Below are positions 528-2,714 of a stretch of 3,453 nt of DNA, in pieces. The translations under genes were made by a program, and so were the position numbers. The notes under the pieces are model-generated. The model ran no database searches, had not been told where the DNA came from, and saw nothing but the letters and a program-made list of their open reading frames with translations. The stretch lies in the NCBI GenBank assembly GCA_000004985.1, contig GG739226.1; one strand, written 5' to 3'. Position 1 is the first letter of the stretch. Every line of letters begins with the position of its first letter. The DNA is from Naegleria gruberi (Eukaryota).

Positions 528-1157
528 TTAATATAATTTAGACTTCAAATGTAACATTTCCATCATCTTTTGCAAGCCTTTGGATTGAATTTCTTGTAGA
601 CGAGGATAGTTACGAGAGTTGTGAATGACAGATTCAAATCGAGCCATCAAAACTTGAACTCTATTCAACAACGCCTCATTGGAAGAGTAATGACGAAGTG
701 TTTTGGTTGAGACAAAACTTATGACATCTCCATCGGATAGTCTATCACCAACTTCGTAGTTACGTCTAATCTCCTTGATAGTAGTTAGACCCCAATGTTT
801 ACCAGTGAAATCCTCATCAGCGGATTCCTCATCAAGGTCTTCATCAAGTTGATTAGCTTGTTGCAGAATAGGAGGAACAGCTTCAAGATGCTTTATTCTC
901 TCACCCAAAGAAGTGATGGCGTTGAAAATAGCATCAAGGTTCTTTTCAGAACCAGCTTGGTTGTTATCCAAGGTTTTGCTTGTTGGGTCAACCACAGAGG
1001 GGAGTGAAGCTGAGCTACCATTGTCAGTTACTAGGATGTAACCTGACTTGTAGGTAGAAGTTGAAGATTTGCTTACTGAAACTCTTTGACGAATGTTGGA
1101 GATATTCGCTTTGCTTGGTGTTTGAACCATTTCAATATACTTAATTTTTTTGAGCAT
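528..1157 (-). CDS. Small hydrophilic protein of unknown function, paralog A of a tandem family. It is 209 aa from the first ATG (MLKKIKYIEMVQTPS…) and 199 aa if translation starts at the conserved internal ATG at 1130 (MVQTPSKANIS…). It has a Ser/Thr-rich N-terminal half, an acidic stretch (DEDLDEESADEDF) and a C-terminal approx. 85-aa extension that the paralog lacks. Stop is TAA at 528-530.
   Basis: This is the longest ORF in the window. The track's listed start at 1172 is a TTG, which is not used in eukaryotes. The first ATG is at 1155-1157 with a poor -3 T context. The second in-frame ATG at 1128-1130 has a gaaATGG context and aligns with the start of gene 2. Codon usage is yeast-optimal (GGT 7 of 9 Gly, AGA, TTG, TCT, CAA). 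The overlapping +strand ORF 795..1007 is an antisense shadow. Protein- and DNA-level homology to gene 2 supports that this is a real gene. Confidence 0.75.
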   Translation of the reverse strand: MLKKIKYIEMVQTPSKANISNIRQRVSVSKSSTSTYKSGYILVTDNGSSASLPSVVDPTSKTLDNNQAGSEKNLDAIFNAITSLGERIKHLEAVPPILQQANQLDEDLDEESADEDFTGKHWGLTTIKEIRRNYEVGDRLSDGDVISFVSTKTLRHYSSNEALLNRVQVLMARFESVIHNSRNYPRLQEIQSKGLQKMMEMLHLKSKLY

Positions 1158-1290
1158 AAAATTATTTATCAACTCAATTTTATTGTTTACAATTTGTCGA
1201 AATGCTAACGTTGCATCGTTCCTCGCAACTCTACATTATTGAATCTTCTGTAGCCTTGTTGATTGTTGGATTGATAAGTATTACCTTGTC
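1131..1290 (-). promoter_or_regulatory. 5' leader and proximal promoter block of gene 1, homologous to the block upstream of gene 2.
   Basis: On the minus strand the block reads …attgtaaacaataaaattgagttgataaataatttt ATGCTCAAAAAAATTAAGTATATTGAA ATGG. This matches gene 2's upstream …attgtaaacttaataaaatataagttgagtatttttcc ATGCTCAAAAAATTATCACA ATGG. Further upstream, the +strand sequence cgttcctcgcaactctacattattgaatcttc…gataagtatta matches cacttcgctcagaattagacattttgaa…gttcttc…cgatgtatta. No TATA consensus is visible in this block. Confidence 0.6.
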
Positions 1291-1465
1291 CTTGGTTGAA
1301 GTTGTTGTAGTTGTAGCCAGCTTGTCTAGTATTGTATCTAGTGAGGAACTTACGAAAATTAAGGGTTCTGCTAGCCCATTTGCTGACTTTTTCAATAGTT
1401 TCTGTGTTTGAATGGGCATTAAAAATGACTTTGAAGCAGCTGAAAACTTCTCTAACAGCTACAAA
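1208..1465 (-). other. An 86-codon stop-to-stop open frame with no start codon. It encodes a Q/N/Y/G-rich, prion-like peptide: …FVAVREVFSCFKVIFNAHSNTETIEKVSKWASRTLNFRKFLTRYNTRQAGYNYNNFNQGQGNTYQSNNQQGYRRFNNVELRGTMQR*. It may be a 5'-truncated gene relic, an unrecognised exon, or an emerging ORF.
   Basis: The frame runs from TGA at 1466-1468 to TAG at 1205-1207 on the minus strand. Its only in-frame ATG is three codons before the stop. Codons are strongly yeast-optimal: CAA 5 vs CAG 0, AAC 6 vs AAT 4, TAC 3 vs TAT 1, all five Arg as AGA, and TTC. The listed 62-aa minus ORF (1231..1419, with rare codons CCC/GGG/CTA/ATA) and the 69-aa +strand hydrophobic ORF (1202..1411) are other frames of the same DNA. 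The homologous stretch upstream of gene 2 has stops in all frames. Confidence 0.3.
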
Positions 1466-1535
1466 TCAGGAGGTTCACTTAACCAAATCACCTCCAAACA
1501 ACAAGAGAAGACGATTAAATCTGCTGAAAAAGTAA

Positions 1536-1624
1536 AAACAGCAGAAGATTAGATTTAACTCAGAAATATTCTAAATAAATTCAAATCCTTGAAGAATAAG
1601 TGGTAAATCAAGAATATCACTCTC
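1536..1624 (-). terminator. 3' UTR and probable 3'-end formation region of gene 2.
   Basis: The region immediately downstream of the TGA is AT-rich, with TATTTAGAATATTT on the minus strand. It retains coding-like similarity (GATTTGAAT) to the C-terminal extension that is still coding in gene 1. That fits gene 2 being truncated by a premature stop. Confidence 0.3.
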
Positions 1625-2029
1625 TCAAACGCTTGCAGATTTCAATGACTCACCAAACATTCTTTGGTAAGAGTCGATGATGTGGTTTTTAAACCAATCA
1701 TCTAGTTCATCAGCAACTCTTGCTCTTTTACCAGAAACCTCTTCAGATGGGTTGGACTCAAACAATTCCATCGAAGAAGCGAGAGCAGAAGCACCTTGTG
1801 AACCCACCTTGGCGTTGTTTGAGTCTTTGCCAGGTGATATCTTTTGTTGATTGTTCTTCTTGTTCTTCTTTGTGTCTTGAACAGGAGGAGGTGAAGGCAT
1901 AGCAGAACCATCAGAAGAATTTGAGGTGGAAGGAGTTAAAACAATGACTCGTTGCTCGCTACCTGCAGAAGGTGAGCTAAGGTCTTTCGTTTTCTTGTTG
2001 TTCTTTGGTGTAGTTGGTGTTGGGGCCAT
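1625..2029 (-). CDS. Small protein of 134 aa, paralog B of the same family. It begins MAPTPTTPKNNKKTKD…, has an S/T-P-rich and K/N-rich low-complexity N-terminal two-thirds with NLS-like basic clusters, and ends …KRARVADELDDWFKNHIIDSYQRMFGESLKSASV. Stop is TGA at 1625-1627. It is C-terminally truncated relative to gene 1.
   Basis: The ORF has an ATG at 2027-2029 and an in-frame upstream stop at 2060-2062. Codon usage is yeast-preferred (AAG, AAC, CAA, GGT, TCT, AGA). Several segments align with gene 1: MAPTPTTPK/MVQTPSKA; SDGSAMPSPPPVQDTKK/GSSASLPSVVDPTSK; DSNNAKVGSQ/DNNQAGSE; ADELDDWFKNH/ADEDFTGKHWG; IDSYQRMFGESLKSASV/IKEIRRNYEVGDRLSDGDV. The shadow ORFs 1702..1911(-) and 1720..1902(+) overlap it. 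Confidence 0.72.
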   Translation of the reverse strand: MAPTPTTPKNNKKTKDLSSPSAGSEQRVIVLTPSTSNSSDGSAMPSPPPVQDTKKNKKNNQQKISPGKDSNNAKVGSQGASALASSMELFESNPSEEVSGKRARVADELDDWFKNHIIDSYQRMFGESLKSASV

Positions 2030-2187
2030 TGTGATAATTTTTTGAGCATGGAAAAATACTCAACTTATATTTTATTAAGTTTACAATGAAAACAAGTCCA
2101 TTCTTCACTTCGCTCAGAATTAGACATTTTGAAAAATGTTCTTCATTAACCAAATTAACTCCTGTTCGATGTATTAGGAAGAAATGT
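2030..2187 (-). promoter_or_regulatory. 5' leader and proximal promoter block of gene 2. It contains a conserved uATG at 2049..2047 and a weak TATA-like AATATAAG about 40 nt upstream of the ATG.
   Basis: Homology to 1131..1290 is described in that feature. The upstream ATGCTC… opens a 38-codon uORF that is out of frame with the main start and overlaps it. The block ends inside the left arm of the 19-bp inverted repeat. Confidence 0.6.
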
Positions 2188-2273: not shown

Positions 2274-2485
2274 TTGAGAAAGGCTAAACAAATGAACATT
2301 ATTATTGGTAAGAAGAGAAAGAATGAGAAGACTTTGATATAAGGATTTGGTAAAAACAATACAAAAATTATGCACTCGAGTGGCATTGTTAGGTAAAGAT
2401 ATACATTTCTTTTGTATTATCAAACTTTCTTGAACTACAAAACAAAATTAAAACAGTACAACTCAAAAAAGTACTTACAAAATTG

Positions 2486-2510
2486 TATTTCAAATATTTC
2501 AAATATTTCA
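2486..2510. repeat. Short tandem repeat with a 9-bp unit: tatttcaaa × 2.8.
   Basis: The sequence is tatttcaaa tatttcaaa tatttca, within an AT-rich spacer. Confidence 0.7.
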
Positions 2511-2714
2511 CACACATGAAATTCAATACAATGCACGTATTGATTGATCATGTTGATTATTGTTAATTTGTTTTTTTTGTATGATTAAAATGAAAGTCTT
2601 GTTATTTCTATTTATTCCATTTCGTTTGTTCATTTGTTGCCTATTATATTACATCAAATCACAAATCTCATTCACAATAAATCAAGTTGTTTTTTATTTG
2701 GAGAAATTGAATTC

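What the first reader, a model, noticed from the sequence alone, without database searches (positions are those of the whole stretch)
1208..1465. A start-less 86-codon open frame with optimal codons encodes a Q/N/Y-rich prion-like peptide between the paralogs
The frame runs 258 nt stop-to-stop on the minus strand, which is long for 70% AT DNA. It has strongly preferred yeast codons (all Gln as CAA, all Arg as AGA, AAC over AAT, TAC over TAT). That is unlikely for non-coding sequence. It has no usable ATG, and its 3' end overlaps the region that is promoter-homologous in the gene 2 copy. Possible explanations are a 5'-truncated relic of an older gene cut by the duplication breakpoint, an exon of a spliced transcript, a frameshifted small gene, or a proto-gene. 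The upstream 62-aa ORF beginning ATGCCC at 1419 lies in another frame, and a single frameshift would join it to this frame.
Basis: seen in the sequence. Interest (0 to 1): 0.5.

Follow-up and report, generated by a model that had tools for sequence, protein, structure and literature searches.

The report
Broken retrotransposon gag-like gene tail
The start-less open frame is the leftover 3' end of a decayed DIRS-like retrotransposon gene in the amoeba Naegleria gruberi (not yeast), cut off from its start by a small inversion, so it is an ordinary mobile-element relic rather than a new gene.

Summary
The 86-codon stop-to-stop frame at 1208-1465 (minus strand) exists as described. The organism is Naegleria gruberi, not a yeast, and the window is a whole 3453-nt scaffold.

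Codons 22-77 match the C-terminus of an intact 361-aa protein, P0012 residues 281-342 (75% identity, E 9e-19). P0012 is ORF1, the gag-position gene, of a DIRS-like retrotransposon (locus L003). In L003 a reverse-transcriptase ORF follows ORF1, then a putative tyrosine-recombinase ORF that matches only weakly there.

'Gene 2' (2029-1625) is the 5' part of the same ORF1. This copy carries:
- a 214-nt deletion;
- a 2-nt deletion;
- two nonsense codons;
- a 146-bp inversion (1401-1546).

The first 21 codons of the frame are the inverted piece read antisense. The last 9 codons lie in the 5' leader of a second DIRS-like element, whose ORF1 is 'gene 1' and which abuts at 1234-1240.

The Q/N/Y tail is the genuine low-complexity tail of the parent ORF1. 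Its CAA/AAC codons come from CAA/AAC/ACA-rich DNA that lacks stops in several frames.

Frame length alone is not significant: 0.5-0.9 such frames are expected per random window. The annotated model NAEGRDRAFT_54904 is a chimera that reads this region in a different frame.

Verdict: an ordinary transposon pseudogene fragment, of low interest.

The parts
1208..1465 (-). The reported 86-codon stop-to-stop frame. It is a composite of three pieces of different origin, listed below.
1405..1465 (-). Codons 1-21 (FVAVREVFSCFKVIFNAHSNT). This is the antisense reading of the inverted ORF1 segment. It is open by chance and has no sense homology.
   Evidence: The BLASTP match to P0012 starts at codon 22.
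1234..1404 (-). Codons 22-77. This is the authentic 3' part of family-2 ORF1 (ETIEKVSKWASRT...RYNTRQAGYNYNNFNQGQGNTYQSNNQQGYRRFNN). It corresponds to L003 880-1068 and P0012 aa 281-342, and includes the Q/N/Y-rich tail (1235-1330).
   Evidence: blastn (81% with two in-frame indels of 21 and 3 nt); BLASTP (75% identity, E 9e-19)
1208..1233 (-). Last 9 codons (VELRGTMQR) plus the stop. They lie in the 5' leader of the adjoining family-1 DIRS-like element and are not part of the family-2 ORF1.
   Evidence: Identity to L001 starts at GTAGAGTTGCGAGG. The P0005 N-terminus is encoded here in another frame.
1401..1546 (+). Inverted 146-bp segment of ORF1 (codons ~233-281, CV*MGIKNDFEAAENFS...AEKVKTAE), now on the plus strand. 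It carries a TGA at 1409-1411 where L003 has CGA (Arg).
   Evidence: tblastn (82%, E 3e-22, plus strand); blastn to L003 739-884, 96%, plus/plus; blastn to L002 840-1003, plus/plus
1547..1642 (-). ORF1 codons ~202-232 (ICKRLRE/SDILDLPLILQGFEFI*NISELNL). It has a 2-nt deletion in the (TC)n run at 1620-1626 and an in-frame TAG at 1573-1571.
1640..1642 (-). Junction of a 214-nt internal deletion relative to L003 (about 432-645), with 3 nt of microhomology. It creates the premature TGA at 1627-1625 that ends 'gene 2'.
   Evidence: HSP coordinates
1625..2029 (-). 'Gene 2', the 5' part of family-2 ORF1. Codons 1-130 are 98% identical to L003. The remainder is a frameshifted read-through.
2030..2128 (-). 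5' leader of the family-2 element. Homology to L002 ends at about 2123-2128.
528..1240 (-). 5' fragment of a family-1 DIRS-like element. It comprises the leader (1131-~1236) plus ORF1 codons 1-199 ('gene 1', 1130-528). Homology to L001 stops at ~539, where the fragment is truncated.
1285..1337 (-). 53-nt mini-exon of the annotated chimeric model NAEGRDRAFT_54904. It is read in frame -1 (DTILDKLATTTTTSTKDK), not in the Q/N/Y frame.
   Evidence: exact reconstruction

Best explanation
The frame is a dead remnant of ORF1, the gag-position gene, of a DIRS-like tyrosine-recombinase retrotransposon of Naegleria gruberi, called 'family 2' here.

In intact copies ORF1 is 361 codons long. It ends in an Asn/Gln/Tyr/Gly-rich low-complexity tail that overlaps the start of the reverse-transcriptase frame.

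In this scaffold the copy has decayed in five ways:
1. A 214-nt deletion plus a 2-nt microsatellite slip removed 72 codons. Between the two lesions the parental frame is shifted, and the retained frame meets the stop that ends 'gene 2'.
2. One sense codon became TAG.
3. A 146-bp internal piece was inverted. It carries a TGA where L003 has CGA.
4. The element is cut 19 codons before the ORF1 stop.
5. At that cut the 5' end of a different DIRS-like element ('family 1', whose truncated ORF1 is 'gene 1') adjoins.

The 86-codon frame is therefore a composite. It has 21 codons of antisense reading of the inverted piece, 56 codons of true ORF1 3' end and tail, and 9 codons of the neighbour's leader.

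I infer that it stays open for three reasons. The lesions sum to multiples of three. The tail DNA is CAA/AAC/ACA-rich and has no stops in several frames. The copy is young, 93-98% identical to an intact element outside the tail.

Nothing indicates that it is translated here. In intact elements the tail presumably acts as the nucleic-acid-binding or assembly end of the Gag-like protein. That last point is inferred, not shown.
For: Organism and scaffold:
- Gene 1 is 100% identical to N. gruberi NAEGRDRAFT_49699.
- P0014 (NAEGRDRAFT_54904, on a contig of 3453 nt) is reproduced exactly from window exons.

Parent gene:
- P0012 is an intact 361-aa ORF1. The finding's codons 22-77 align to P0012 281-342 at 75% identity, E 9e-19.
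- At DNA level, window 1234-1404(-) matches L003 1068-880.

Collinear map of the same ORF1 across the window:
- 2070-1640(-) matches L003 1-431 at 98%.
- 1642-1546(-) matches L003 643-741 at 93%.
- 1401-1546(+) matches L003 739-884 at 96%, in opposite orientation.
- tblastn of P0008 gives the same result.
- The inversion is absent from L003, from L002 and from the protein models P0008, P0009, P0010 and P0012. It is therefore private to this copy.

Element class:
- L003 ORF2 matches RVT_1 at 4.6e-21, and L001 at 2.5e-25.
- L001 also has Dam-like (1.1e-4) and Phage_integrase (3.2e-4) hits.
- The L002 third ORF matches Phage_integrase at 3e-5.
- A profile of the three third ORFs hits XerA at E 0.019.
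- The three-ORF layout with pol/YR overlap matches the DIRS1 description in PMC3266345.
- That paper also lists degenerate DIRS1-like copies in N. gruberi.

Junction with family 1:
- L001 identity starts at GTAGAGTTGCGAGG, at window 1234-1240.

Stop-poor low complexity:
- The 1235-1330 tail has no stops in 3 of 6 frames. CAA, AAC and ACA make up 27 of its 94 trinucleotides.
Against: - No expression data could be consulted, so translation of the relic, for example through a spliced transcript, is not excluded.
- The tail has no detectable homologs outside the ~95%-identical element. A search of 1.84 billion representatives gave 0 hits.
- The N-rich tail frame of the 56%-identical relative L002 is not significantly similar (BLASTP E 27). 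In L002 that frame is also out of frame with ORF1.
- Constraint on the tail as protein is therefore not demonstrated.
- The tyrosine-recombinase and methyltransferase matches are below Pfam gathering scores.
- Terminal repeats were not examined.
- The 146-bp inversion rests on a single assembled scaffold.
Confidence: 0.92

Rival explanations
1. The frame is the second exon of a spliced host transcript. Exon 1 would be gene 2 up to ...SYQRMF (2029-1654). An intron from GTGAGT at 1653 to TTTGTAG at 1459 would join in phase and give a 209-aa protein ending in the Q/N/Y tail.
For: A GT...AG intron of 195 nt keeps frame -3 exactly. The annotated model uses the same donor at 1653.
Against: Intact family members read through this 'donor' as Gly-Glu-Ser codons in a continuous 361-codon ORF. 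The frame continuity follows from lesion lengths (214+2 nt deleted, a ~147-nt inverted block). The first 21 exon-2 codons would be antisense nonsense. The only annotated model picks another acceptor and another frame. No protein with this junction exists in 5.8 billion sequences.
Confidence: 0.04
2. The frame is a chance open frame in AT-rich, low-complexity non-coding spacer with no coding history.
For: Frames of >=86 codons are expected 0.5-0.9 times per random window. Four frames are open in this stretch. Codons 1-21 and 78-86 are indeed open by chance.
Against: Codons 22-77 match, in frame, the C-terminus of an intact ORF1 at 75% identity, E 9e-19. Both indels relative to L003 are multiples of three.
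Confidence: 0.03
3. The frame is a proto-gene or an independent small Q/N-rich 'prion-like' gene that has lost or not yet gained a start codon, or a frameshifted small gene starting at ATGCCC (1419).
For: The composition is Q/N/Y-rich. The 62-aa ATG ORF overlaps in frame -1.
Against: The ATGCCC start lies inside the inverted segment read antisense. Frame -1 is the homolog of the upstream extension of the RT frame of L003 (70% identity). The Q/N frame derives from a pre-existing 361-aa ORF. No independent homologs were found.
Confidence: 0.01

Closest known systems
DIRS1-like tyrosine-recombinase retrotransposons (DIRS order; reference element DIRS-1 of Dictyostelium discoideum), specifically their ORF1 / putative GAG
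   Same: The intact relatives (L001, L002, L003) have a first ORF with no known domain. It is followed by an RT-containing pol with a Dam-like methyltransferase region. An ORF whose 3' end resembles a tyrosine recombinase overlaps pol extensively. This matches the description in PMC3266345. Copies sit next to or inside each other, and many are degenerate, as reported for N. gruberi.
   Different: ORF1 of the Naegleria elements has no detectable sequence similarity to any Pfam family. Its N/Q/Y/G-rich tail overlaps the start of the RT frame. ITRs and ICRs were not identified here. The YR and MT matches are sub-threshold.
Processed or decayed transposon ORFs mis-annotated as host genes (chimeric ab initio gene models)
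   Same: NAEGRDRAFT_54904 joins two unrelated retroelement ORF1 fragments through a 53-nt mini-exon and two predicted introns that bridge the lesions. P0013, P0008 and P0009 are further models of truncated copies.
   Different: None of substance. This is the usual artefact.
Q/N-rich prion-like domains (e.g. yeast Sup35/Rnq1-type)
   Same: Composition only. N+Q make up about half of the 33-residue tail, with interspersed Tyr and Gly.
   Different: The tail is 33 aa here and ~60 aa in the intact parent. It is part of a transposon Gag-like protein in an AT-rich protist, and no prion predictor or assay was applied. In this window it has no start codon and is disconnected from its gene.

Membership tests
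DIRS1-like retrotransposon (parent element of the relic) | Reverse transcriptase domain in the pol ORF | tested here: met
   RVT_1 at E 4.6e-21 (75.9 bits, cutoff 29.6) in L003 889-2808. RVT_1 at 2.5e-25 in L001. RVT_1 is on record for the L002 ORF2.
DIRS1-like retrotransposon (parent element of the relic) | Tyrosine recombinase instead of a DDE integrase | tested here: inconclusive
   Phage_integrase scores are 24.3 bits (E 3e-5, L002), 21 bits (E 3.2e-4, L001) and 11.5 bits (L003). All are below the 27.1-bit cutoff. The profile hits PDB XerA at E 0.019. The matches are consistent but sub-threshold. These Pfam scans listed no rve/DDE integrase family.
DIRS1-like retrotransposon (parent element of the relic) | Methyltransferase-like domain downstream of RT/RH | tested here: inconclusive
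   Dam PF05869 scores 22.4 bits (E 1.1e-4, L001) and 14.6 bits (L003). The cutoff is 28.1 bits.
DIRS1-like retrotransposon (parent element of the relic) | Three ORFs with a gag-position ORF1 and extensive pol/YR overlap | tested here: met
   L001 has ORF1 at 738-1757, the RT frame at 1675-3612 and an overlapping 881-codon frame at 1794-4436 ending in the YR match. L003 has a 576-codon frame over the RT ORF.
DIRS1-like retrotransposon (parent element of the relic) | Inverted terminal repeats and internal complementary regions | not tested
   None of the three reference contigs was shown to hold a complete element. L003 and L001 are cut at a contig end, and the window holds only 5' fragments.
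Functional protein-coding gene at 1208-1465 | Start codon and uninterrupted colinearity with the intact homolog | tested here: not met
   There is no ATG before codon 84. The upstream part of the ORF is inverted, deleted and stop-interrupted.
Prion-like (Q/N-rich) domain | Long Q/N-rich, low-charge region scored by a prion-composition model, or demonstrated aggregation | not testable with these tools
   Only composition was counted. No PLAAC-type predictor or assay was available.

The most novel reading that the evidence does not exclude
The N/Q/Y/G-rich, Arg/Phe-punctuated tail of ORF1 may be a functional, condensate-forming or prion-like nucleic-acid-binding module of the Gag-like protein in Naegleria DIRS-like elements. 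It is encoded in overlap with the start of the RT frame. The window's copy would be only a dead witness of it. A remoter possibility is that the relic is exapted through the in-phase 1653/1459 splice into a 209-aa host protein.
Probability: 0.07. Interest if true: 0.4.

Novelty: new member of a known kind. Interest (0 to 1): 0.12.

Why it matters
For the genome scan, this resolves an apparent orphan 'prion-like' frame as transposon debris. It also flags NAEGRDRAFT_54904 as a chimeric mis-annotation built from two retroelement fragments, and the related models P0008, P0009 and P0013 as built on truncated element copies.

It incidentally gives usable reference copies of two Naegleria DIRS-like families (L001; L002 and L003). 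Their presence in N. gruberi had been called uncertain because of degeneracy (PMC3266345).

It also provides a clean small example of a microhomology-flanked 146-bp inversion.

It opens no broader biological question.

Tried and rejected
- **Yeast premise.** Rejected, which identifies Naegleria gruberi.
- **Pfam on all candidate peptides in the spacer.** Nothing reached a cutoff.
- **My own early idea that the frame is exon 2 of gene 2.** A 1653/1459 intron is in phase. I rejected it as the main explanation once intact homologs showed a continuous ORF and an inversion.
- **Plus-strand ORFs 1202-1411 and 1412-1552.** They share a frame and are split by one TGA, so I considered them as a real plus-strand gene. 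I rejected this. 1412-1552 is the inverted ORF1 piece. 1202-1411 is the antisense of the tail, which is Val/Leu-rich because GTT/TTG complement AAC/CAA.
- **Exhaustive representative search with the 65-aa homologous part.** 0 hits.
- **JGI metagenome scan with P0008.** Nothing.
- **Exact-protein look-ups of the N. gruberi models P0001, P0002, P0008 and P0009.** Not on record, so no N. gruberi paralog DNA could be read. ENA contigs L001-L003 served instead.
- **Family-1 versus family-2 ORF1 homology.** Not significant by BLASTP (E 24) or hhalign (E 0.14). Only the leaders align.
- **Tail of L002 versus tail of P0012.** Not significant.
- **tRNA and Rfam scans of the window.** Nothing.

Full report
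**Observation**

The minus-strand frame from 1465 to 1208 is open for 86 codons, bounded by TGA (1468-1466) and TAG (1207-1205). It translates to FVAVREVFSCFKVIFNAHSNTETIEKVSKWASRTLNFRKFLTRYNTRQAGYNYNNFNQGQGNTYQSNNQQGYRRFNNVELRGTMQR. Its only Met is codon 84.

- Gln is 7/7 CAA.
- Tyr is 4 TAC to 1 TAT.
- Arg is 6 AGA, 2 CGT and 1 CGA.
- Asn is 7 AAT to 6 AAC.

Length alone is not remarkable. Markov simulations with the window's dinucleotide composition give 0.5-0.9 open frames of >=86 codons per 3453 nt. The probability is about 0.06 for a 494-nt spacer of the local composition. The same stretch is also open for 83, 75 and 72 codons in three other frames.

**Source organism**

The window is not yeast. 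The 200-aa product of 'gene 1' (1130-528, minus) is 100% identical to Naegleria gruberi NAEGRDRAFT_49699. A cluster look-up found NAEGRDRAFT_54904 (P0014, 346 aa) on a contig of exactly 3453 nt. I reproduced P0014 exactly by joining window exons 2029-1654, 1337-1285 and 1139-528 on the minus strand. The window is therefore an entire small N. gruberi scaffold.

**What the flanking 'paralogs' are**

Gene 1 has ~340-aa relatives in N. gruberi and in an ENA metagenome contig, L001. In L001 this ORF (738-1757) is followed by:
- a 645-codon frame with a reverse transcriptase domain (RVT_1, E 2.5e-25) and a Dam-like region;
- an overlapping 881-codon frame whose 3' end matches Phage_integrase.

Gene 2 has relatives P0008 and P0009 (N. 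gruberi), P0010 (ENA contig L002) and P0012 (ENA contig L003). In L002 and L003 this ORF is again followed by an RT ORF (RVT_1 on record for L002; E 4.6e-21 in L003). A third ORF follows with sub-threshold tyrosine-recombinase similarity (Phage_integrase E 3e-5 in L002; PDB XerA E 0.019 for the three-sequence profile).

The layout matches the published description of DIRS1-like retrotransposons (PMC3266345):
- a gag-position ORF1;
- a pol with RT and a methyltransferase-like part;
- a YR ORF that overlaps pol and carries its catalytic part at the non-overlapping 3' end.

That paper also lists a handful of degenerate DIRS1-like copies in N. gruberi. DIRS elements are also tabulated in N. lovaniensis (PMC6125883).

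The two window ORFs are thus ORF1s of two DIRS-like families. Their proteins are not significantly similar. Their 5' leaders do align (ATTGTAAAC...AATAAAAT...ATGCTCAAAAAA...ATGG).

**The frame itself**

L003 carries an intact 361-codon family-2 ORF1 (P0012). It ends ...AEKVKAAETIEKVNKWASRTPNFRKFPTRYDNRQAGYNYNNNNNHNNNFNQGQGNSYQSNNQGFRRFNNAHQASGTASNSSNSNNNNK. Codons 22-77 of the finding align to P0012 residues 281-342 with 75% identity, E 9e-19. The Q/N/Y-rich peptide is therefore the genuine C-terminal tail of this ORF1.

The blastn map of the window on L003 is as follows:

| Window | Strand | L003 | Identity |
|---|---|---|---|
| 2070-1640 | minus | 1-431 | 98% |
| 1642-1546 | minus | 643-741 | 93%, with a 2-nt gap in a (TC)n run |
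| 1401-1546 | plus | 739-884 | 96% |
| 1404-1234 | minus | 880-1068 | 81% including in-frame indels of 21 and 3 nt |

Relative to an intact element the window copy therefore has:
- a 214-nt deletion with 3 nt of junctional microhomology;
- a 2-nt slip;
- a 146-bp inversion with 3-5 nt of microhomology and 3 extra nt at the junctions.

tblastn of P0008 gives the same picture. It also shows two nonsense codons, at positions that are Gln and Arg in P0008. One is TAG at 1573-1571. The other is TGA at 1409-1411, inside the inverted piece, where L003 has CGA. The inversion is absent from L003 and L002 and from all protein models, so it is private to this copy.

**Three-part composition of the frame**

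- Codons 1-21 (1465-1405) are the inverted piece read antisense.
- Codons 22-77 (1404-1234) are the real ORF1 3' end.
- Codons 78-86 (VELRGTMQR, 1233-1208) lie in the 5' leader of the family-1 element.

Identity to L001 begins precisely at (AT)GTAGAGTTGCGAGGAACGATGCAACG, at window 1234-1240. Upstream of that point L001 and the window are unrelated. The same leader is read in another frame as the N-terminus of model P0005.

The family-2 element is thus cut 19 codons before its ORF1 stop. The cut falls at the ATG that opens the RT frame in L003 (1066-1068). A 5' fragment of a family-1 element follows, and it is itself truncated at ~539.

**Why the frame looks coding**

- It was coding.
- The copy is young, 93-98% identical to L003 outside the tail.
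- The deletions sum to 216 nt, and the inverted block occupies a multiple of three. Gene 2, the tail and the antisense stretch therefore all fall in frame -3.
- The tail DNA is A/C-rich. CAA, AAC and ACA make up 27 of its 94 trinucleotides, and three of six frames are stop-free.

This also explains the open plus-strand Val/Leu-rich frame. It explains the 62-aa 'ATGCCC' ORF as well. That frame (-1) is homologous to the Thr-rich upstream extension of the L003 RT frame (70% identity), and its ATG lies in the inverted segment.

**Rivals**

*Spliced exon.* A 195-nt GT...AG intron (1653-1459) would join gene 2 to the frame in phase. Intact copies read through that 'donor' as Gly-Glu-Ser codons. The first 21 codons would be antisense nonsense. 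The annotated model chooses a different acceptor and frame. No protein with such a junction exists.

*Pure chance.* This is refuted for the central 56 codons.

*Proto-gene or independent small gene.* These readings are contradicted by descent from a 361-aa ORF and by the absence of independent homologs.

**Limits**

- I could not read N. gruberi paralog DNA. The look-ups failed.
- I could not consult expression data or check the raw reads behind the inversion.
- Protein-level constraint on the tail is not shown. The 56%-identical relative L002 has an N-rich frame ending NNNNK* like P0012. That frame is out of frame with its ORF1 and is not significantly similar.
- The YR and MT assignments are sub-threshold, and the terminal repeats were not examined.

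**Verdict**

The finding is real as a sequence feature, but it is ordinary. It is the decayed 3' end of a DIRS-like retrotransposon ORF1, disconnected from its start by an inversion and abutted by another element. Interest is low. The useful by-products are the correction of a chimeric gene model and reference copies of two Naegleria DIRS-like families.

Noticed in passing
window 528-2029 (minus); exons 2029-1654, 1337-1285, 1139-528: The annotated N. gruberi gene NAEGRDRAFT_54904 (P0014, 346 aa) is a chimera of two retroelement ORF1 fragments. It joins them through a 53-nt mini-exon and two predicted introns (316 and 145 nt) that bridge the lesions.
   Followed up: yes
window 1401-1546: A 146-bp inversion relative to intact copies, with 3-5 nt inverted microhomology (TCT/AGA, CAGAA/TTCTG) and 3 extra nt at the junctions. 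The mechanism is unknown. Candidates are template switching, break repair or recombinase action.
   Followed up: partly
window 2169-2187 / 2198-2216, and 2249-2277: A perfect 19-bp inverted repeat (ATGTATTAGGAAGAAATGT / ACATTTCTTCCTAATACAT, 10-nt loop) lies about 40 nt outside the family-2 leader end. A third related copy is 87 nt away. It could be part of an element terminus or an insertion target.
   Followed up: no
L003 889-1127 and 1066-1068; window 1234-1240: In the intact element the ORF1 tail overlaps the upstream open part of the RT frame (Thr-rich). The first ATG of the RT frame coincides with the point where the window switches from family-2 to family-1 sequence. The family-1 leader also begins with ATG.
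   Followed up: partly
L003 1173-2903; L001 1794-4436: Very long alternative open frames (576 and 881 codons) lie over the RT ORF. The L001 frame ends in the tyrosine-recombinase match, which is the pol/YR overlap typical of DIRS1. The metagenome gene caller annotated the L003 alternative frame instead of the RT frame.
   Followed up: partly
L002 1000-1185: In the 56%-identical relative, ORF1 and the RT ORF share one frame and are separated by two TAA codons. An N-rich frame ending NNNNK* (as in P0012) lies in another frame. This could be a frameshift mutation, an assembly error or recoding.
   Followed up: no
window 528-540 (minus), and the N. gruberi 461,873-nt scaffold: The family-1 ORF1 is truncated at codon ~199 (…LKSKLY*). 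The identical 200-aa product is also annotated on a large scaffold (NAEGRDRAFT_49699), next to another family-1 model (NAEGRDRAFT_68512). The window may be an allelic or duplicated copy of that locus.
   Followed up: no
proteins P0008, P0009, P0013 (N. gruberi): Other family-2 ORF1 copies are cut at different points of the 3' region. P0008 and P0009 are cut after TRYD, and P0013 after KSAEK. All are annotated as 'predicted proteins', and P0013 is fused to unrelated sequence.
   Followed up: no
window 2485-2519: A short 9-nt tandem repeat (ATTTCAAAT x ~3) lies within a palindromic stretch in the AT-rich flank.
   Followed up: no
L001 131-685: A 184-codon open frame with an acidic Ser/Asp-rich stretch runs into the family-1 element's 5' end. 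It is unrelated to the window. It may be the host gene or sequence into which that copy inserted.
   Followed up: no
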